Positions 1 through 8,042 of a stretch of 8,042 nt of DNA are shown piece after piece. A program made the translations under genes and the position numbers. The notes beneath the pieces were generated by a model. The model did no database searches and had not been told where the DNA came from. It saw nothing but the letters and a program-made list of their open reading frames with translations. The stretch comes from Naegleria gruberi (taxonomy: Eukaryota), in NCBI GenBank assembly GCA_000004985.1, contig GG739096.1; one strand, written 5' to 3'. The first letter of the stretch is position 1. Each line of letters opens with the position of its first letter.

Positions 1-524
1 GTACTGGAAGAATTGACCATCTCTTGCATCAATGCTGGTAAATCAAGGTACCTTGCCAATTTAACAATCTTTTTCAATTTTCCAAGATCATCAGCTAGCC
101 CATTAATATTCAAATTATCTCCATATAAATATTCCAAAACTACATCAAAATCAGATCTAACCAAATATGTTCCTTCAGTCAACTCTATTTGCTGACTAAT
201 ATCTGCCACCTTCGTCATATCAACAACATATTTTCCATCCACAATGGCCACATCACTCGATTGTTCAATCATTCTCCGTATCAATCCACTCCTTTTCACA
301 ATAAAATCATGAACCTTATACTCAAACCAAGGAGTTTTGATCATCACATTCGGAGGAACAATTAATGGCTGATTGTCGCTCCTTTGATAAACAACCGATT
401 GAGCATCATCATCTTTGGAACCTCCATTAAGACTACGGAACATATTTAACAAATAATTGGACATGTCCATTTCTTCGAGTTGATTTCGTGGCCAAGCAGA
501 AAGCCAATTAAACCTTTTCGACAT
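1..524 (-). CDS. 5' portion of a protein-coding gene (about 174 codons visible, continues beyond window start); BTB/POZ-fold protein with an Elongin C / Skp1-like segment
   Basis: The reverse complement of 522-524 is ATG, preceded by an A-rich tract (AAAAAAATG; yeast-like start context, though A(-3) also holds at 6847 and the real start at 6075 is unknown). The open frame then runs to position 1 with no stop: MSKRFNWLSAWPRNQLEEMDMSNYLLNMFRSLNGG...IKTPWFEYKVHDFIVKRSGLIRRMIEQ...DFDVVLEYLYGDNLNI...IVKLARYLDLPAL. The block HDFIVKR + downstream hydrophobic pattern resembles Elongin C (HEFIVKRE...IKAML...ELLMAANFLD) as recalled from memory. It is not in the supplied ORF track, presumably because it has no stop within the window. 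The product call is from memory-based similarity only. Confidence 0.6.
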   Translation of the reverse strand, partial: MSKRFNWLSAWPRNQLEEMDMSNYLLNMFRSLNGGSKDDDAQSVVYQRSDNQPLIVPPNVMIKTPWFEYKVHDFIVKRSGLIRRMIEQSSDVAIVDGKYVVDMTKVADISQQIELTEGTYLVRSDFDVVLEYLYGDNLNINGLADDLGKLKKIVKLARYLDLPALMQEMVNSSS

Positions 525-759
525 TTTTTTCTCTTTTAATTTCCACTTATTTGTTTCCTTTGTAAAATCTTTGCAAAAAATTGTTGGCAATCAAAGATAT
601 TGTTTGAACTCAACTTGGAAAGCTCAAGCAGTGAAATGAAACTCTACTCGAAAAAAAACCAAAAAAATACCCGTTCGGCAATTAGCTTATCTTGGAGAGG
701 ATCATTGTCATCATTGGCTTTCTACATCATTCATTTATTTGTGCAGCTTGTTATTGTAT

Positions 760-823: not shown

Positions 824-1173
824 ATGATTGAGCAAGTGATTCAAGTTGCTTCATCATATTGGTATTTAGTATTAGCACCTTTGGGATTATTTAAATATGA
901 AGGAGCAATGACAACTTTTGACTTGTCAATCATGTCAGCCTTTTTCTTATTCTTTTGCCCAGTGGTGTTAATTCCATTGTTATTCTTTGGTGTGAGAGCA
1001 CCTTATGGAAAGTTTGCTTCTACTAATAGCAATGAAGGAGAATCAGCAGTGAGCAAATGGTGGAGAAGAATATCAAGTAAGACAGATATTGCCTTGAATG
1101 GTAGATTTGCATTTGCATTCCAAGAATCATTCGCATTATCTTCCTTCCTCTATGTATTATTAACTTGTGAATG
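824..1173 (+). CDS. N-terminal fragment (116 codons) of a 3-oxo-5-alpha-steroid 4-dehydrogenase (steroid 5-alpha-reductase, DET2/SRD5A1-like) family membrane protein; the rest is lost in the N-run
   Basis: ATG at 824 is the first in-frame ATG after a TAA at 764-766; an alternative ATG lies at 908. The translation contains hydrophobic TM-like segments and the motif FFGVRAPYGKF followed by WW..IS.K.DIALNGRFAFAFQESFALSSFLY. This matches the conserved N-terminal region of DET2/SRD5A1-type reductases as recalled (LQAPYGKH...IAWFVMESPTLWL). It is not the TSC13 or DFG10/SRD5A3 type, whose N-termini differ. The reading frame is open when it enters the Ns at 1174; the 824..5737 ORF in the track is an artifact. 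Confidence 0.6.
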
Positions 1174-4100
1174 NNNNNNNNNNNNNNNNNNNNNNNNNNN
1201 NNNNNNNNNNNNNNNNNNNNNNNNNNNNNNNNNNNNNNNNNNNNNNNNNNNNNNNNNNNNNNNNNNNNNNNNNNNNNNNNNNNNNNNNNNNNNNNNNNNN
1301 NNNNNNNNNNNNNNNNNNNNNNNNNNNNNNNNNNNNNNNNNNNNNNNNNNNNNNNNNNNNNNNNNNNNNNNNNNNNNNNNNNNNNNNNNNNNNNNNNNNN
1401 NNNNNNNNNNNNNNNNNNNNNNNNNNNNNNNNNNNNNNNNNNNNNNNNNNNNNNNNNNNNNNNNNNNNNNNNNNNNNNNNNNNNNNNNNNNNNNNNNNNN
1501 NNNNNNNNNNNNNNNNNNNNNNNNNNNNNNNNNNNNNNNNNNNNNNNNNNNNNNNNNNNNNNNNNNNNNNNNNNNNNNNNNNNNNNNNNNNNNNNNNNNN
1601 NNNNNNNNNNNNNNNNNNNNNNNNNNNNNNNNNNNNNNNNNNNNNNNNNNNNNNNNNNNNNNNNNNNNNNNNNNNNNNNNNNNNNNNNNNNNNNNNNNNN
1701 NNNNNNNNNNNNNNNNNNNNNNNNNNNNNNNNNNNNNNNNNNNNNNNNNNNNNNNNNNNNNNNNNNNNNNNNNNNNNNNNNNNNNNNNNNNNNNNNNNNN
1801 NNNNNNNNNNNNNNNNNNNNNNNNNNNNNNNNNNNNNNNNNNNNNNNNNNNNNNNNNNNNNNNNNNNNNNNNNNNNNNNNNNNNNNNNNNNNNNNNNNNN
1901 NNNNNNNNNNNNNNNNNNNNNNNNNNNNNNNNNNNNNNNNNNNNNNNNNNNNNNNNNNNNNNNNNNNNNNNNNNNNNNNNNNNNNNNNNNNNNNNNNNNN
2001 NNNNNNNNNNNNNNNNNNNNNNNNNNNNNNNNNNNNNNNNNNNNNNNNNNNNNNNNNNNNNNNNNNNNNNNNNNNNNNNNNNNNNNNNNNNNNNNNNNNN
2101 NNNNNNNNNNNNNNNNNNNNNNNNNNNNNNNNNNNNNNNNNNNNNNNNNNNNNNNNNNNNNNNNNNNNNNNNNNNNNNNNNNNNNNNNNNNNNNNNNNNN
2201 NNNNNNNNNNNNNNNNNNNNNNNNNNNNNNNNNNNNNNNNNNNNNNNNNNNNNNNNNNNNNNNNNNNNNNNNNNNNNNNNNNNNNNNNNNNNNNNNNNNN
2301 NNNNNNNNNNNNNNNNNNNNNNNNNNNNNNNNNNNNNNNNNNNNNNNNNNNNNNNNNNNNNNNNNNNNNNNNNNNNNNNNNNNNNNNNNNNNNNNNNNNN
2401 NNNNNNNNNNNNNNNNNNNNNNNNNNNNNNNNNNNNNNNNNNNNNNNNNNNNNNNNNNNNNNNNNNNNNNNNNNNNNNNNNNNNNNNNNNNNNNNNNNNN
2501 NNNNNNNNNNNNNNNNNNNNNNNNNNNNNNNNNNNNNNNNNNNNNNNNNNNNNNNNNNNNNNNNNNNNNNNNNNNNNNNNNNNNNNNNNNNNNNNNNNNN
2601 NNNNNNNNNNNNNNNNNNNNNNNNNNNNNNNNNNNNNNNNNNNNNNNNNNNNNNNNNNNNNNNNNNNNNNNNNNNNNNNNNNNNNNNNNNNNNNNNNNNN
2701 NNNNNNNNNNNNNNNNNNNNNNNNNNNNNNNNNNNNNNNNNNNNNNNNNNNNNNNNNNNNNNNNNNNNNNNNNNNNNNNNNNNNNNNNNNNNNNNNNNNN
2801 NNNNNNNNNNNNNNNNNNNNNNNNNNNNNNNNNNNNNNNNNNNNNNNNNNNNNNNNNNNNNNNNNNNNNNNNNNNNNNNNNNNNNNNNNNNNNNNNNNNN
2901 NNNNNNNNNNNNNNNNNNNNNNNNNNNNNNNNNNNNNNNNNNNNNNNNNNNNNNNNNNNNNNNNNNNNNNNNNNNNNNNNNNNNNNNNNNNNNNNNNNNN
3001 NNNNNNNNNNNNNNNNNNNNNNNNNNNNNNNNNNNNNNNNNNNNNNNNNNNNNNNNNNNNNNNNNNNNNNNNNNNNNNNNNNNNNNNNNNNNNNNNNNNN
3101 NNNNNNNNNNNNNNNNNNNNNNNNNNNNNNNNNNNNNNNNNNNNNNNNNNNNNNNNNNNNNNNNNNNNNNNNNNNNNNNNNNNNNNNNNNNNNNNNNNNN
3201 NNNNNNNNNNNNNNNNNNNNNNNNNNNNNNNNNNNNNNNNNNNNNNNNNNNNNNNNNNNNNNNNNNNNNNNNNNNNNNNNNNNNNNNNNNNNNNNNNNNN
3301 NNNNNNNNNNNNNNNNNNNNNNNNNNNNNNNNNNNNNNNNNNNNNNNNNNNNNNNNNNNNNNNNNNNNNNNNNNNNNNNNNNNNNNNNNNNNNNNNNNNN
3401 NNNNNNNNNNNNNNNNNNNNNNNNNNNNNNNNNNNNNNNNNNNNNNNNNNNNNNNNNNNNNNNNNNNNNNNNNNNNNNNNNNNNNNNNNNNNNNNNNNNN
3501 NNNNNNNNNNNNNNNNNNNNNNNNNNNNNNNNNNNNNNNNNNNNNNNNNNNNNNNNNNNNNNNNNNNNNNNNNNNNNNNNNNNNNNNNNNNNNNNNNNNN
3601 NNNNNNNNNNNNNNNNNNNNNNNNNNNNNNNNNNNNNNNNNNNNNNNNNNNNNNNNNNNNNNNNNNNNNNNNNNNNNNNNNNNNNNNNNNNNNNNNNNNN
3701 NNNNNNNNNNNNNNNNNNNNNNNNNNNNNNNNNNNNNNNNNNNNNNNNNNNNNNNNNNNNNNNNNNNNNNNNNNNNNNNNNNNNNNNNNNNNNNNNNNNN
3801 NNNNNNNNNNNNNNNNNNNNNNNNNNNNNNNNNNNNNNNNNNNNNNNNNNNNNNNNNNNNNNNNNNNNNNNNNNNNNNNNNNNNNNNNNNNNNNNNNNNN
3901 NNNNNNNNNNNNNNNNNNNNNNNNNNNNNNNNNNNNNNNNNNNNNNNNNNNNNNNNNNNNNNNNNNNNNNNNNNNNNNNNNNNNNNNNNNNNNNNNNNNN
4001 NNNNNNNNNNNNNNNNNNNNNNNNNNNNNNNNNNNNNNNNNNNNNNNNNNNNNNNNNNNNNNNNNNNNNNNNNNNNNNNNNNNNNNNNNNNNNNNNNNNN

Positions 4101-5710
4101 NNNNNNNNNNNNNNNNNNNNNNNNNNNNNNNNNNNNNNNNNNNNNNNNNNNNNNNNNNNNNNNNNNNNNNNNNNNNNNNNNNNNNNNNNNNNNNNNNNNN
4201 NNNNNNNNNNNNNNNNNNNNNNNNNNNNNNNNNNNNNNNNNNNNNNNNNNNNNNNNNNNNNNNNNNNNNNNNNNNNNNNNNNNNNNNNNNNNNNNNNNNN
4301 NNNNNNNNNNNNNNNNNNNNNNNNNNNNNNNNNNNNNNNNNNNNNNNNNNNNNNNNNNNNNNNNNNNNNNNNNNNNNNNNNNNNNNNNNNNNNNNNNNNN
4401 NNNNNNNNNNNNNNNNNNNNNNNNNNNNNNNNNNNNNNNNNNNNNNNNNNNNNNNNNNNNNNNNNNNNNNNNNNNNNNNNNNNNNNNNNNNNNNNNNNNN
4501 NNNNNNNNNNNNNNNNNNNNNNNNNNNNNNNNNNNNNNNNNNNNNNNNNNNNNNNNNNNNNNNNNNNNNNNNNNNNNNNNNNNNNNNNNNNNNNNNNNNN
4601 NNNNNNNNNNNNNNNNNNNNNNNNNNNNNNNNNNNNNNNNNNNNNNNNNNNNNNNNNNNNNNNNNNNNNNNNNNNNNNNNNNNNNNNNNNNNNNNNNNNN
4701 NNNNNNNNNNNNNNNNNNNNNNNNNNNNNNNNNNNNNNNNNNNNNNNNNNNNNNNNNNNNNNNNNNNNNNNNNNNNNNNNNNNNNNNNNNNNNNNNNNNN
4801 NNNNNNNNNNNNNNNNNNNNNNNNNNNNNNNNNNNNNNNNNNNNNNNNNNNNNNNNNNNNNNNNNNNNNNNNNNNNNNNNNNNNNNNNNNNNNNNNNNNN
4901 NNNNNNNNNNNNNNNNNNNNNNNNNNNNNNNNNNNNNNNNNNNNNNNNNNNNNNNNNNNNNNNNNNNNNNNNNNNNNNNNNNNNNNNNNNNNNNNNNNNN
5001 NNNNNNNNNNNNNNNNNNNNNNNNNNNNNNNNNNNNNNNNNNNNNNNNNNNNNNNNNNNNNNNNNNNNNNNNNNNNNNNNNNNNNNNNNNNNNNNNNNNN
5101 NNNNNNNNNNNNNNNNNNNNNNNNNNNNNNNNNNNNNNNNNNNNNNNNNNNNNNNNNNNNNNNNNNNNNNNNNNNNNNNNNNNNNNNNNNNNNNNNNNNN
5201 NNNNNNNNNNNNNNNNNNNNNNNNNNNNNNNNNNNNNNNNNNNNNNNNNNNNNNNNNNNNNNNNNNNNNNNNNNNNNNNNNNNNNNNNNNNNNNNNNNNN
5301 NNNNNNNNNNNNNNNNNNNNNNNNNNNNNNNNNNNNNNNNNNNNNNNNNNNNNNNNNNNNNNNNNNNNNNNNNNNNNNNNNNNNNNNNNNNNNNNNNNNN
5401 NNNNNNNNNNNNNNNNNNNNNNNNNNNNNNNNNNNNNNNNNNNNNNNNNNNNNNNNNNNNNNNNNNNNNNNNNNNNNNNNNNNNNNNNNNNNNNNNNNNN
5501 NNNNNNNNNNNNNNNNNNNNNNNNNNNNNNNNNNNNNNNNNNNNNNNNNNNNNNNNNNNNNNNNNNNNNNNNNNNNNNNNNNNNNNNNNNNNNNNNNNNN
5601 NNNNNNNNNNNNNNNNNNNNNNNNNNNNNNNNNNNNNNNNNNNNNNNNNNNNNNNNNNNNNNNNNNNNNNNNNNNNNNNNNNNNNNNNNNNNNNNNNNNN
5701 NNNNNNNNNN
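1174..5710. other. Uninterrupted run of 4537 N (assembly gap of estimated size, or hard-masked sequence); no information recoverable
   Basis: Counted directly: the last real bases ATG are at 1171-1173, Ns run from 1174 to 5710, and real sequence resumes with GCT at 5711. All multi-kb ORFs in the track spanning this interval are poly-X artifacts. Confidence 0.99.
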
Positions 5711-6074
5711 GCTGTAGTGGACATTTTCTCTGTTTAAAATTGCAGAATGAGATTTGTAGTTTTTTTTAGATTTTGAAAATATTTTGTTCATCCTTGATAA
5801 CTTGGTGTCATATCGAGAATTGGGGATGATGTTGTTGGAAGGGATGCATTATCGGATAGAATGTGGTTGAGAAGATATTGGCGAGAGATGAGAAAATTGC
5901 TCTCGGAAGCACAATTTTTGAATGGACATCCTGCTAAACGAGTTGATTCAACCAAAGATGTCGAGAGAATGCAAAGATATGATAATACTTTGATTAGGTT
6001 GAGCAATACAGGAGGAGAAGAAGAATGCTAAAGGTAAAAGAATATGAAATGACAATACTTCCTTCTTTGGCTAA

Positions 6075-6716
6075 TTGGATAGATTTGGAAAGTATTCTGA
6101 TACAGTATTGTTAATTTTCTATCATCATATTGAAGGTTTCATTCAGAGAAAAGATCATTATGATCCTTTCATTTTCAAACTCACTAGTGCCATGTTAGTC
6201 ATTGGTTTCAGACTTTTCGCTAGACCAGGTGAATTAGCTAGACTCAAGTGGGGTTATGTTACAAAGCTTAGAAATGGTAACATCAAATTAGATCTCAGTG
6301 GTCACAAAACAGATTTCTTTCTACTAGAAAAGCCGATTACTATTGACAAGCATCTTGAAAATCCTTCAGTGTGTCCAGTGAAATTGCTTTTTGATTACAT
6401 GGACACTGTACAGCATTTCAAAAAAGCAGATTCACCATTGTTTTCATTGCAGGACAATATTTTCTTCAACACTGAAGATGTTTCTCAACTTATCAAGAAT
6501 GCTATGTTCTATGTTGATTCAGAAATCACTGTTTCTGGTCACAGTTTACGTATTGGTGCAACTACTGAGAGTATTATCAAGGGAATTCCCACTCAGGATA
6601 TTATTATGGGGACTAGACATAAGGATGTGAAATCTTTACAACCTTATCAAAGACAAGAAGCTCTTGCAGCTCGCCACTTGTCTACTACTCTCCTTTCTCG
6701 GGACAATATCCATTAG
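6075..6716 (+). CDS. Tyrosine recombinase (phage-integrase family, Cre/lambda-Int type) catalytic domain, complete through the catalytic Tyr. The ORF has no ATG start and no N-terminal core-binding domain, so it is either an exon or C-terminal part of a larger gene, or a pseudogenised mobile-element relic
   Basis: Translation shows the full catalytic signature in canonical order and spacing: Arg I in FARPGELARLKW (R50, codon 6222-6224), Lys in SGHKTD (K78), HxxR in VSGHSLRIGATTE (H156 at 6540-6542, R159), second His in GTRHKDV (H182), and Tyr nine residues later in SLQPYQ (Y191, TAT 6645-6647). Segment-by-segment it parallels Cre (LLRIAEIARIRV / GRTKT / WSGHSARVGAARDMA..IPEIMQAGGWTNVNIVMNYIR) as recalled. 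The 'M' in the ORF track is a TTG (6075-6077) that directly follows an in-frame TAA (6072-6074). The first in-frame ATG (M40, 6192) would delete part of the fold. Confidence 0.75.
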   Translation: MDRFGKYSDTVLLIFYHHIEGFIQRKDHYDPFIFKLTSAMLVIGFRLFARPGELARLKWGYVTKLRNGNIKLDLSGHKTDFFLLEKPITIDKHLENPSVCPVKLLFDYMDTVQHFKKADSPLFSLQDNIFFNTEDVSQLIKNAMFYVDSEITVSGHSLRIGATTESIIKGIPTQDIIMGTRHKDVKSLQPYQRQEALAARHLSTTLLSRDNIH

Positions 6717-6846
6717 TTTATTTATTGTTGGTTTTCTTTTAAGAAACATGTTCTTATCGAAGTTTACTGAGATAAAGTAGTGTTTCTTGAAAACAACAAT
6801 TGAATAAACTAATAATAGAAAGTATGCTCAAAAAAATTGTCATACT

Positions 6847-7974
6847 ATGGTCGCTAAGAAGCCTCAAGATATTGACTCCTCTTCATCTGATGAAGATCTC
6901 CCAGCAGTTGAAGTAGAATACCCCACAACACCAGTGAAAGCAAGAAAACAACAAGCTGCTAAGAAGCTTAGAAAGTTAAAGGCCATGTCACCTGTAGCTA
7001 ATAGAAATAAGCGCAAACAATCTACTTCAGTTTCATCATCTAACAGTGCCTTAGATGATGGTATTTCAACTGTTGTTTCCAGTTCGTTGCTAAGCAATTC
7101 AACTTTGTTGGATAGTTCTTCAACTGCACCCTCTTCGTCAAACAATTCGTCTTCTTCCAATTCAGGTAGAGATAGTTTTGCCAGTAGTTCATCTGAACAT
7201 GATATCATGGCGATCAAAGCCCAAATGCAAGAAATGATTGGAGTTTTGAGAACCGTAACAGGAAATATCTCTGAACTTACTAAGAAAGTTCAGGAGAGAG
7301 AAGAAGAATCAGATGATGATTTTGTTAATCCAGAAGCTATATCTCCAGAAGTTTGGTTACGTCAAACTTATAGAGACCTTAGAAGTTCTTACAATGTTCC
7401 TTCATCTATTGGAGATGATTTATTACTATCTGCAGTATCCTCCGAGATACTTAAAGACCGTAAACAAGAGGAGACCAAGAGAAGAATTCAATATTTGCTC
7501 CTTAAATACAAGGATGTGATTTCCAAGTTTGCCCCAGACATTAGATTGGATGAGATTAACAGTATTGGTTATTCTAAACTAGTAGAGTTAACTCAAATCA
7601 AAATTGAATTGTTGGAATATGCATTGAATTCTCCACTTGATTTTACAGTCATGACAGAGATTACAGAACTTTGTAGAATGATTTGCAAAGTTGAAGCCCT
7701 CTTCCTTAAAGAAGGTTTACAAGTTTCCACTTTCGATGTTGGTAGAGAATTCCTTAACAGATACATTTCTACTAATAGTTTCGAAACTGCTGCCGAAAGT
7801 GAACTTCATAATATTAGAACAACATATCATTACTACAAAGCAACCAAGCAGCAACAAGGTCCAAAGGGAATTACCAAGAAGTATTCTAAGAAGAAACCGT
7901 TTCAAAAGAAAAACAATAAGGGTCAAGGAAACGGTGGTAAATTCCAAGGAAAAGATAAGGATAAGTCAGAATGA
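6847..7974 (+). CDS. Hypothetical 375-aa protein: Lys-rich N-terminus, long Ser/Asn-rich low-complexity stretch, central region with charged heptad-like segments, and a strongly basic Gly/Lys C-terminal tail. Function unknown; a Gag-like or nucleic-acid-binding protein is one possibility
   Basis: ATG at 6847 with A at -3 and G at +4. There are 375 codons with no CTG and a codon preference matching the other genes in the window, ending at TGA 7972-7974. The C-terminal 30 residues (KKYSKKKPFQKKNNKGQGNGGKFQGKDKDKSE) are highly basic. I recognise no confident homolog. The antisense ORFs 6864..7217 and 7717..7947 are mirror artifacts. Confidence 0.55.
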   Translation: MVAKKPQDIDSSSSDEDLPAVEVEYPTTPVKARKQQAAKKLRKLKAMSPVANRNKRKQSTSVSSSNSALDDGISTVVSSSLLSNSTLLDSSSTAPSSSNNSSSSNSGRDSFASSSSEHDIMAIKAQMQEMIGVLRTVTGNISELTKKVQEREEESDDDFVNPEAISPEVWLRQTYRDLRSSYNVPSSIGDDLLLSAVSSEILKDRKQEETKRRIQYLLLKYKDVISKFAPDIRLDEINSIGYSKLVELTQIKIELLEYALNSPLDFTVMTEITELCRMICKVEALFLKEGLQVSTFDVGREFLNRYISTNSFETAAESELHNIRTTYHYYKATKQQQGPKGITKKYSKKKPFQKKNNKGQGNGGKFQGKDKDKSE

Positions 7975-7985
7975 CTCTTCCACTC

Positions 7986-8001
7986 CCTCCTTCCAAGGAG
8001 G
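7986..8001. repeat. Perfect 7-bp inverted repeat with 2-nt spacer (CCTCCTT CC AAGGAGG), starting 11 nt after the TGA stop of the 6847..7974 ORF; it could form a short RNA hairpin
   Basis: Base-by-base pairing was checked: 7986-7992 is complementary to 7995-8001. It is local GC-rich sequence in an otherwise AT-rich context. Confidence 0.5.
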
Positions 8002-8042
8002 AAGATTACAACAGTTTGGAAAAAGTGGCAAATCTCCCCAAA

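What the first reader, a model, noticed from the sequence alone, without database searches (positions are those of the whole stretch)
6075..6716. Complete Cre-type tyrosine-recombinase catalytic domain in a yeast-like nuclear context, lacking start codon and N-terminal domain
The 213-codon frame encodes every catalytic residue of the tyrosine recombinase fold in the right order and spacing (R50, K78, H156-x-x-R159, H182, Y191; H-to-Y spacing 9 as in Cre, not 13 with Trp as in FLP of 2-micron-type plasmids). The frame opens immediately after a TAA, begins with TTG, and has no plausible ATG until inside the domain. The roughly 100-130 aa core-binding domain expected upstream is absent. In eukaryotes such domains mark Cryptons or DIRS/Ngaro/PAT-like retroelements. 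Neither is a routine component of Saccharomycotina-type genomes, so this is either a novel or relic mobile element, a domesticated recombinase, or the last exon of a gene whose 5' part is hidden in the N-run.
Basis: partly seen in the sequence, partly recalled or inferred. Interest (0 to 1): 0.8.

Follow-up and report, generated by a model that had tools for sequence, protein, structure and literature searches.

The report
Truncated retrotransposon recombinase gene in Naegleria
The frame is a broken-off rear half of the recombinase gene of a multi-copy DIRS-type (tyrosine-recombinase) retrotransposon in the amoeba Naegleria gruberi, not a yeast gene, so it is an ordinary relic of a kind of mobile element already reported in this genus.

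Summary
ORF 6075-6716 carries all six tyrosine-recombinase catalytic residues (R50, K78, H156, R159, H182, Y191), and they align with Cre R173/K201/H289/R292/W315/Y324. The context is wrong: the window is a whole 8042-bp scaffold of Naegleria gruberi NEG-M. GenBank already lists the ORF as hypothetical protein NAEGRDRAFT_76701 (174 aa).

Recombinase homology starts at 6113 and matches residues 127-326 of intact 326-aa paralogs at 99%. A near-identical full unit (L015) and sister families show the order gag, RT/RNase H/methyltransferase-like, recombinase. That makes it a DIRS-order retrotransposon, not a Crypton or a host gene.

An element-free homologous contig (L017) matches 5711-6112 and stops exactly at 6112. 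So 6112|6113 is a real host/element junction. The N-run hides a host aldehyde dehydrogenase gene, not the missing N-terminal domain.

After the recombinase stop come 32 nt, then the element's left end (6749), a complete gag (6847-7974) and the start of RT. This head-to-tail unit junction lies inside a ~100-nt palindrome.

Verdict: a young, 5'-truncated, probably dead recombinase fragment beside another copy. Sub-classification (PAT/Toc3-like versus DIRS1-like) and the cause of the truncation are unresolved. Low interest.

The parts
1174..5710 (.). Run of 4537 N, most likely a scaffold gap between two contigs. It is entered from the right by a host gene, not by the recombinase gene.
   Evidence: aldehyde dehydrogenase gene in L017
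5711..5724 (-). First codons (ATG at 5724-5722, MSTT...) of a host aldehyde dehydrogenase gene that runs leftwards into the N-run.
   Evidence: ORF list. L017 carries PF00171 Aldedh exons on the same strand, directly adjoining the matching stretch.
5711..6112 (.). Host flank, not element DNA. It is 92% identical to L017 1771-2175. The match ends exactly at 6112, after which L017 continues with unrelated sequence (GTTGTGTGAAAC...), so L017 represents the empty site.
   Evidence: no match to the element unit L015
6075..6112 (+). About 13 host-derived codons (TTG..., LDRFGKYSDTVLL) that happen to be open in frame with the recombinase fragment. They are not part of the recombinase.
6113..6716 (+). 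3' part of the tyrosine-recombinase ORF, including the TAG stop. It equals residues 127-326 of the intact 326-aa protein and L015 3443-4046 (4 nt differences over 6113-6748). It holds the complete catalytic domain with R50, K78, H156, R159, H182 and Y191.
6192..6716 (+). Existing GenBank gene model NAEGRDRAFT_76701 (EFC35640.1 / XP_002668384.1, 174 aa, 'predicted protein').
6710..6748 (+). End segment of the unit ('B'-like). It begins with the motif CCATTAG, conserved across families and overlapping the stop codon, and ends with ...AAGAAACA.
6712..6813 (.). Imperfect ~100-nt palindrome spanning the unit junction (arms about 6712-6763 and 6766-6813).
   Evidence: DNA fold -25.9 kcal/mol, z -6.0, 0 of 200 shuffles as good; arms listed. 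An analogous palindrome with a different sequence occurs in sister family L016 (z -4.8).
6741..6753 (+). Unit junction AAGAAACA|TGTTC. Position 6749 corresponds to the first base of the element's left end as seen against non-element DNA in L015 (60|61).
6823..6837 (+). TATGCTCAAAAAAAT, a non-coding motif upstream of the gag ATG that is conserved in three diverged families.
6847..7974 (+). Complete gag-like ORF (375 aa, no CCHC zinc finger), identical to EFC35641.1.
   Evidence: Homologous to the ORF preceding RT in L001 (tblastx 41%, E 6.6e-26) and in L015. Zinc-finger scan.
7682..8042 (+). Start of the RT/RNase H/methyltransferase-like ORF. It lies in the +1 frame relative to gag, overlaps gag by about 290 nt, contains the motif GGRLQQF, and runs off the scaffold end.

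Best explanation
The frame is the 3' 60% of the tyrosine-recombinase gene of a multi-copy DIRS-order retrotransposon of Naegleria gruberi. Unit order is gag, then RT/RNase H/methyltransferase-like, then recombinase; unit length is about 4 kb.

In an intact element, RT copies the RNA into DNA, the DNA is circularised, and the two-domain recombinase integrates it by conservative site-specific recombination. This mechanism is established knowledge for DIRS-type elements and was not shown here.

At this locus (shown):
- The inserted DNA begins inside the recombinase ORF at 6113.
- It runs through the recombinase stop and a 32-nt tail, then crosses the unit junction at 6748|6749, which lies inside a ~100-nt palindrome.
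- It continues into a complete gag and the start of RT of a further unit, head to tail.

The fragment has no N-terminal DNA-binding domain, no own ATG before codon 40 and no upstream element sequence. Its intact frame most likely reflects youth (99% identity to full copies), not function (inferred).

How the arrangement arose is also inferred. Either a circular copy integrated at the B|A junction of a resident truncated copy, or a longer-than-unit or circularly permuted copy was inserted.
For: Organism and identity:
- 99% identity over 200 aa to N. gruberi XP_002679188.1.
- The 174-aa model EFC35640.1 and the gag model EFC35641.1 both sit on an 8042-bp contig, the same length as the window.

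Retrotransposon architecture:
- L015 is 99% identical to the window and has gag 159-1277, an RT ORF 1237-3150 (RVT_1 E 3e-26, Dam-like E 7.8e-4, RVT_3 E 0.017) and the recombinase 3153-4046.
- The same order is seen in L001 and L016.

Copy number: at least 4 recombinase loci and at least 6 gag loci at 90% identity or more in N. gruberi.

Host/element junction: L017 matches 5711-6112 at 92% and diverges exactly at 6112.

Head-to-tail junction:
- Window 6113-6994 equals L015 3443-4324, and window 6749-8042 equals L015 61-1347.
- L016 has an exact 127-bp terminal overlap, as expected for a circular or tandem unit of 3980 bp.

Palindromes.

Fold and catalytic residues.

Literature: DIRS1-like sequences in N. 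gruberi (PMC3266345); 89 DIRS fragments in N. lovaniensis (PMC6125883).
Against: - PF00589 is below Pfam's gathering score (22.5 versus 27.1 bits).
- The AlphaFold model is only of moderate confidence (pLDDT 67, TM about 0.35).
- The right end of this insertion is off the scaffold. Tandem, permuted and longer-than-unit insertion therefore cannot be told apart, and no target-site duplication could be looked for.
- The N. gruberi genome itself could not be searched at the DNA level.
- The junction at 6112|6113 rests on a single small Sanger scaffold.
Confidence: 0.9

Rival explanations
1. The insertion is a single, circularly permuted unit. A circular element copy was opened inside its own recombinase gene at 6112|6113, so the 3' part of the gene lies at the left end and the 5' part at the unseen right end.
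For: The inserted DNA starts inside the ORF and passes uninterrupted through the unit junction into gag and RT. The 15 nt to the left of the element in L015 are the reverse complement (14/15) of the sequence at exactly this break point. It is the only hit with at most 1 mismatch in the element, against 0.002 expected. That hints the site is special.
Against: The host target and the break-point sequence share no overlap homology, which conservative tyrosine recombination normally needs. The right end is not available. In L015 the canonical left end lies at the junction, not at this site.
Confidence: 0.2
2. It is a Crypton-type DNA transposon, or a domesticated host recombinase gene whose 5' exon lies in the N-run.
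For: A recombinase-only gene model exists in GenBank. The frame is intact over 200 codons.
Against: In every related contig with enough flank, the recombinase is preceded by an RT ORF in the same orientation. Intact paralogs are single uninterrupted ORFs of about 300-326 aa. 5711-6112 is host DNA with an empty-site homolog, and the N-run is entered by an aldehyde dehydrogenase gene on the other strand. There are several 99%-identical copies.
Confidence: 0.02
3. The join at 6112|6113 is an assembly or cloning chimera of a repeat-rich small scaffold, and no truncated copy exists in the genome.
For: The scaffold is 8 kb, more than half of it gap, and its right contig ends inside a repeat.
Against: A second 174-aa model (EFC35398.1, on a 2202-bp scaffold) starts at the same Met, though this is weak because it could result from a contig end. 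Truncated copies are common in this family; P0013, P0021 and P0023 are examples.
Confidence: 0.05
4. The truncated catalytic domain is expressed from the internal ATG at 6192 and acts as a regulator of the element, for example as a dominant-negative partner of the full recombinase.
For: The frame is intact, all catalytic residues are present, and the gene model was accepted by the annotators.
Against: There are only 2 aa differences (4 nt over 6113-6748) from full copies, so the intact frame is explained by youth. No expression data are available. The fragment lacks the DNA-binding N-terminal domain.
Confidence: 0.03

Closest known systems
PAT-like / Toc3-like elements of the DIRS group (split-direct-repeat retrotransposons with a methyltransferase-like domain and no gag zinc finger; PMC4157794)
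   Same: Order gag, RT/RNase H/MT-like, recombinase, all on one strand. gag has no CCHC finger. After the recombinase comes a short B segment and then a partial, separately diverging copy of the element's 5' end (A2). This is seen in L015 4079-4324, whose diagnostic K-to-N change is shared with N. gruberi EFC35364.1. A more distant relative, L006, shows B1-A2-B2.
   Different: B2 and the right terminus were never seen for this family. The MT-like hit is below Pfam's threshold. In the window the junction is followed by a full gag plus RT rather than a short A2. No phylogeny against reference PAT/Toc3 sequences was possible.
DIRS1 of Dictyostelium and DIRS1-like elements (PMC3266345)
   Same: A tyrosine recombinase together with RT/RNase H and an MT-like domain. 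N. gruberi was listed there as carrying DIRS1-like sequences (7 copies, 6 families), on similarity alone.
   Different: No long inverted terminal repeats were found. No internal region complementary to the junction scored above shuffled controls. The recombinase lies downstream of pol rather than overlapping upstream of it. Only a ~100-nt palindrome at the junction and one unexplained 15-nt internal complement were seen.
Ngaro and VIPER elements
   Same: Order gag, RT/RNase H, recombinase, with internal repeats downstream of the recombinase (PMC4157794, PMC6681497).
   Different: Those lack the MT-like domain. Here Dam-like sub-threshold hits occur at the same position in two families.
Cre recombinase of phage P1
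   Same: Best sequence-profile and fold match. The same six catalytic positions are present, with 9 residues between the H/W position and the Tyr, and the intact paralog has a two-domain layout.
   Different: About 15% identity. His replaces Trp315. It is encoded by a eukaryotic retroelement. The window copy lacks the N-terminal domain.
Cryptons
   Same: A eukaryotic mobile element that uses a tyrosine recombinase.
   Different: Cryptons have no RT or gag. Here the recombinase is always linked to RT and gag.

Membership tests
Tyrosine recombinase superfamily (Pfam PF00589 Phage_integrase) | Catalytic R, K, H-x-x-R, H/W and Y in the canonical order and spacing | tested here: met
   R50, K78, H156, R159, H182 and Y191 were read from the sequence. 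They are conserved in 11 homologs and align to Cre R173/K201/H289/R292/W315/Y324.
Tyrosine recombinase superfamily (Pfam PF00589 Phage_integrase) | Score at or above Pfam's gathering cut-off | tested here: not met
   22.5 bits versus 27.1 for the window ORF; 21.8 bits for the intact paralog. Five homologs carry a precomputed PF00589 hit.
Tyrosine recombinase superfamily (Pfam PF00589 Phage_integrase) | Two-domain fold (core-binding N-terminal domain plus catalytic domain) | tested here: met
   Met for the intact paralog P0001: all Foldseek PDB hits with E <= 0.001 are Cre, Tre, XerA, IntI or lambda Int, over about 300-347 alignment columns. The model is of moderate quality (pLDDT 67). The window copy has only the catalytic domain.
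DIRS order (tyrosine-recombinase retrotransposons) | gag, RT/RNase H and recombinase encoded together in one repeated unit | tested here: met
   L015, L001 and L016. The window itself shows the recombinase 3' part, gag and the RT start. Multiple near-identical copies exist.
DIRS group sensu stricto (DIRS1-like plus PAT) | Methyltransferase-like domain after RNase H | tested here: inconclusive
   PF05869 Dam scores 19.6 and 24.8 bits (cut-off 28.1) at equivalent positions in two families.
DIRS1-like | Inverted terminal repeats plus an internal complementary region matching the joined termini | tested here: not met
   No long ITRs were found. The reverse complement of the junction region finds nothing above shuffled controls in the element body, in two families. 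Only a junction palindrome and one 15-nt complement were seen.
PAT-like (Toc3-like) | Split direct repeats: A1 at the 5' end and B1-A2-B2 at the 3' end | tested here: inconclusive
   A1 and B1-A2 are seen in L015 (97% identical). B1-A2-B2 is seen in the distant relative L006. B2 was not seen for this family. The window shows B followed by a full unit.
PAT-like (Toc3-like) | No zinc finger in gag (separates Toc3-like from Pat1-like) | tested here: met
   gag has 2 Cys and no C-x2-C-x4-H-x4-C pattern.
PAT-like / DIRS1-like / Ngaro | Placement in an RT and recombinase phylogeny with reference elements | not testable with these tools
   No reference DIRS1, PAT, Toc3, Ngaro or VIPER sequences were available. 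Named hits were all 'predicted protein'.
Crypton | Recombinase-only DNA transposon without RT or gag | tested here: not met
   An RT ORF lies directly upstream of the recombinase in all informative contigs.

The most novel reading that the evidence does not exclude
The family is a currently active PAT/Toc3-like split-repeat retrotransposon of Discoba. Its unit junction, a conserved ~100-nt palindrome with the motifs CCATTAG and GAAACATG, is the recombinase's attachment site. New circles integrate preferentially at resident B|A junctions and so build head-to-tail arrays. A second recognised site lies inside the recombinase gene itself, at the 15-mer CCAATTTTCTATCAT. That would explain both the break point in this window and the inverted 15-mer beside the element in L015.
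Probability: 0.12. Interest if true: 0.45.

Novelty: new member of a known kind. Interest (0 to 1): 0.2.

Why it matters
It matters little on its own. DIRS-type elements are already recorded for Naegleria, and this copy is a dead fragment that GenBank lists as a hypothetical protein.

Three modest points of value:
- It corrects an annotation: NAEGRDRAFT_76701 and NAEGRDRAFT_54817 are recombinase and gag pieces of a retrotransposon.
- It gives a near-complete ~4-kb unit, a host/element junction and an empty site for a family whose classification in N. gruberi was left open in 2011.
- It points to a conserved palindromic junction that could be tested as the recombination site of a eukaryotic retroelement recombinase. 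No such site has been defined biochemically, as far as I know (own knowledge, not checked in the literature).

Tried and rejected
Searches that found nothing:
- Exact-protein look-ups of N. gruberi models P0001, P0002, P0003 and of the window's gag found no contigs. The N. gruberi assembly could therefore not be read at the DNA level.
- phmmer of the ORF against PDB sequences gave only a spurious Met-tRNA ligase hit. The family profile was needed.
- The upstream 76-aa frame, the left-contig ORF 824-1171 and gag gave nothing significant in Pfam.
- Rfam and tRNA scans of the window were empty.
- The AFDB fold library was not available.

Ideas tested and dropped:
- 'Yeast context' was rejected by the 99-100% matches to N. 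gruberi proteins.
- I tested whether 5711-6112 is element-derived (other strand, other family, inverted copy). It has no match to L015 or L016 beyond chance-level short words.
- A DIRS1-type internal complementary region for the junction was not found in two families.
- I considered that the left flank of L015 is an inverted copy of the recombinase 3' part, produced by inversion or nested insertion. This was rejected because similarity stops after 15-17 nt.
- I considered an LTR-like reading, with a direct repeat running from 6113 across the junction into gag. It fits the window and the right side of L015, but not the left side of L015. It is left open, not adopted.

Full report
**What is in the sequence.** The window has two sequenced blocks, 1-1173 and 5711-8042, separated by 4537 N. 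ORF 6075-6716 (213 codons) starts with TTG directly after a TAA. Its first in-frame ATG is codon 40.

In window coordinates:
- R50: 6222-6224
- K78: 6306-6308
- H156: 6540-6542
- R159: 6549-6551
- H182: 6618-6620
- Y191: 6645-6647

Pfam PF00589 matches residues 48-194 at E 1.1e-4, but with 22.5 bits, under the 27.1-bit gathering score.

**Whose sequence it is.** The ORF is 99% identical over 200 residues to a 326-aa 'predicted protein' of Naegleria gruberi. It is 47-57% identical over most of its length to eight other full or partial proteins from N. gruberi, N. fowleri and environmental assemblies, and 76% identical over half its length to one further partial protein.

A cluster look-up shows a 174-aa N. 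gruberi model, EFC35640.1 / XP_002668384.1 (NAEGRDRAFT_76701). It is identical to the ORF from codon 40 and sits on a contig of 8042 bp, the length of the window. The next accession, EFC35641.1, is 100% identical to the window's 375-aa ORF 6847-7974.

So the window is a complete small scaffold of N. gruberi NEG-M. The 'yeast-like' context is a misreading of AT-rich protist DNA (GC about 35%).

**Is it a tyrosine recombinase?** Yes.
- In an alignment of 12 family members, ARPGE, HKTD and GHSxRIGA are invariant or nearly so. The R(H/W)K motif and the downstream Tyr are conserved in the full-length members.
- A profile of that alignment finds Cre, Tre and XerA among solved structures (best E 3e-4). 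GHSxRxGA aligns on Cre H289/R292 and the (H/W)...Y segment on W315/Y324. The weaker N-terminal stretch puts ARPGE on R173 and HKT on K201.
- An AlphaFold model of the intact 326-aa paralog is of moderate quality (pLDDT 66.8). All 37 of its Foldseek PDB hits with E <= 0.001 are tyrosine recombinases, aligned over about 300-347 columns. That covers both the N-terminal and the catalytic domain.

The window copy has only the catalytic domain. Homology starts at 6113/6114, residue 127 of the intact protein, and nothing upstream matches the N-terminal 126 residues.

**What element it belongs to.** In environmental contigs the recombinase ORF is always preceded, on the same strand, by an RT ORF.
- L001 has a gag C-terminus, a 642-aa ORF with RVT_1 (E 1.8e-23) and a Dam-like stretch (E 1.9e-5, below threshold), then the recombinase overlapping by ATGA.
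- L003 and L004 show the RT end followed by the recombinase.
- L015 is a 4324-bp contig 99% identical to the window. It carries gag 159-1277, RT 1237-3150 (RVT_1 E 3e-26, RVT_3 E 0.017, Dam E 7.8e-4) and the recombinase 3153-4046.
- L016, a sister family, has the same order. Its two ends overlap by exactly 127 identical bases, which is what an assembler produces from a circular or tandemly repeated unit of 3980 bp.

The window's ORF 6847-7974 is the gag of this unit (41%, E 6.6e-26 to the L001 gag). The RT frame opens at 7682 in the +1 frame. It contains GGRLQQF, the counterpart of GGRLQRF in L001, and runs off the scaffold.

N. gruberi has at least four recombinase loci and at least six gag loci of this family at 90% identity or more.

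This is a DIRS-order retrotransposon, not a Crypton. Such elements were already reported for N. gruberi (7 copies in 6 families, supported by similarity only; PMC3266345). In N. lovaniensis, 89 DIRS fragments make up 0.32% of the genome (PMC6125883).

**What lies upstream.** The 76-aa frame in 5798-6025 found one 68-aa environmental protein at 89% identity. Its contig L017 comes from the same sample as L015. It matches window 5711-6112 at 92% (L017 1771-2175) and then continues with unrelated sequence exactly after the base matching 6112.

L017 carries aldehyde dehydrogenase exons (PF00171) on the minus strand. These lead to an ATG that corresponds to window 5724-5722, so the gene runs into the N-run.

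Three things follow:
- 5711-6112 is host DNA.
- 6112|6113 is a true host/element junction with an empty-site counterpart.
- The N-run does not hide the missing recombinase N-terminus.

**What lies downstream.** Window 6113-6994 is colinear with L015 3443-4324, and window 6749-8042 with L015 61-1347. After the stop codon there are 32 nt, and at 6749 the left end of the element begins again (TGTTCTTATCG...). In L015 this same point (60|61) borders non-element DNA.

In L015 the second copy of the 5' region (A2, 4079-4324) is 97% identical to the first and has lost the gag ATG. It shares a diagnostic K-to-N change with an N. gruberi fragment, EFC35364.1. This suggests a separately maintained partial repeat.

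A more distant relative, L006, shows a recombinase stop, repeat R1, 538 bp, then repeat R2. That is a B1-A2-B2 pattern. It is the split-direct-repeat layout (A1 ... B1-A2-B2) described for PAT-like, Ngaro and VIPER elements (PMC6681497, PMC4157794).

With an MT-like domain and a gag without a zinc finger, the family looks PAT/Toc3-like. However, B2 was never seen for it and no reference phylogeny could be made. A DIRS1-type internal complementary region was sought and not found.

In the window the junction is followed by a full, A1-type gag plus RT rather than a short A2. The locus is therefore a truncated unit joined head to tail to a further unit, or a permuted or longer-than-unit insertion.

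**The junction.** 6712-6813 forms an imperfect palindrome (DNA fold -25.9 kcal/mol, z -6.0). The sister family has a palindrome of different sequence at the same place (z -4.8). Three short non-coding motifs are conserved across families whose proteins are only 34-57% identical:
- CCATTAG at the recombinase stop
- TAGTGTTTC
- TATGCTCAAAAAAAT before the gag ATG

Whether the palindrome is the recombinase's site is an inference. It is attractive because a resident B|A junction would be an ideal target for a new circle, and that would generate exactly the head-to-tail arrangement seen here.

**An unexplained detail.** The 15 nt directly left of the element in L015 (ATGATAGAAATTTGG) are the reverse complement, 14 of 15, of L015 3441-3455. 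That stretch spans the break point of the window's copy. It is the only hit with at most 1 mismatch in the element, against 0.002 expected per shuffled 15-mer. The similarity does not extend on either side. I could not decide between three readings: a special site inside the recombinase gene, templated filler DNA, and a target preference.

**How it works, and verdict.** Intact copies presumably act as in other DIRS-type elements: RT makes DNA from the RNA, the DNA is circularised, and the recombinase integrates it. This is established knowledge for the order and was not tested here.

The window's fragment lacks the DNA-binding half, a promoter and a proper start. It differs from full copies by 2 amino acids, or 4 nt over 6113-6748. 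It is best read as a recent, dead, 5'-truncated copy.

The finding is an ordinary member of a known kind of element in a genus where that kind is already recorded.

Noticed in passing
window 5711-5724 (minus strand) and N-run 1174-5710; L017 2-1784: A host aldehyde dehydrogenase gene starts at 5724 on the minus strand and runs into the gap. The element-free homolog L017 shows its exons (PF00171).
   Followed up: yes
window 3-527 (minus) and 824-1173 (plus): Two host ORFs lie on the left contig. One is a 175-aa frame with a borderline BTB/POZ hit (20.7 bits versus a cut-off of 20.5). The other is a hydrophobic 116-aa N-terminus (MIEQVIQ...) that runs into the gap and has no Pfam hit.
   Followed up: partly
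L015 46-60 versus L015 3441-3455 (= window 6111-6125): The 15-mer abutting the element's left end in L015 is the reverse complement (14/15) of the sequence at the window's break point. It is a unique hit, against 0.002 expected by chance. Unexplained.
   Followed up: partly
L015 34-48; window 5910-5924; L017 1982-1996: The exact 15-mer CACAATTTTTGAATG is shared between the non-element flank of L015 and the host flank of the window's insertion, about 190 nt from the junction. It could be chance or a shared regulatory motif.
   Followed up: no
L016 1-127 and 3981-4107: The sister-family contig has an exact 127-bp terminal overlap, equal to the k-mer size in its name (k127). The unit therefore assembled as a circle of 3980 bp, which means tandem copies, split repeats or extrachromosomal circles in that sample.
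   Followed up: partly
window 6113-8042 versus L015; window 5711-6112 versus L017: The element DNA, including its non-coding 130 nt, is about 99% identical between N. gruberi NEG-M and the environmental sample ERZ929261. The adjacent host intergenic DNA is only 92% identical, with many indels. Either the element spread more recently than the strains diverged, or the sample holds several Naegleria strains.
   Followed up: no
window 7682-7974: The RT frame overlaps the end of gag by about 290 nt in the +1 frame and has no ATG near the conserved GGRLQQF. This suggests expression by frameshifting or another recoding or re-initiation event.
   Followed up: no
P0023 (EFC35816.1, 11,225-bp N. gruberi scaffold): A 569-aa gene model joins gag residues 1-354 directly to the recombinase from about residue 109. 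Either this copy has an internal deletion of RT, or the gene model treats RT as an intron.
   Followed up: no
L001 about 3600-3645 and L002 (same sequence): In this family member the recombinase frame leaves the family alignment right after GHSLRIGAT and stops 12 codons later, so the Tyr is lost. This is another truncated or rearranged copy, with a different break point.
   Followed up: no
L009 (6321 bp), L008, L010, L011 (JGI metagenome contigs): These are distant DIRS-like elements from other, GC-richer eukaryotes, with gag followed by one long RT-to-recombinase ORF. In L009 a stretch near 2-520 recurs near 5328-5708, judged from repeated ORF translations and not aligned, so it may have flanking direct repeats.
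   Followed up: no
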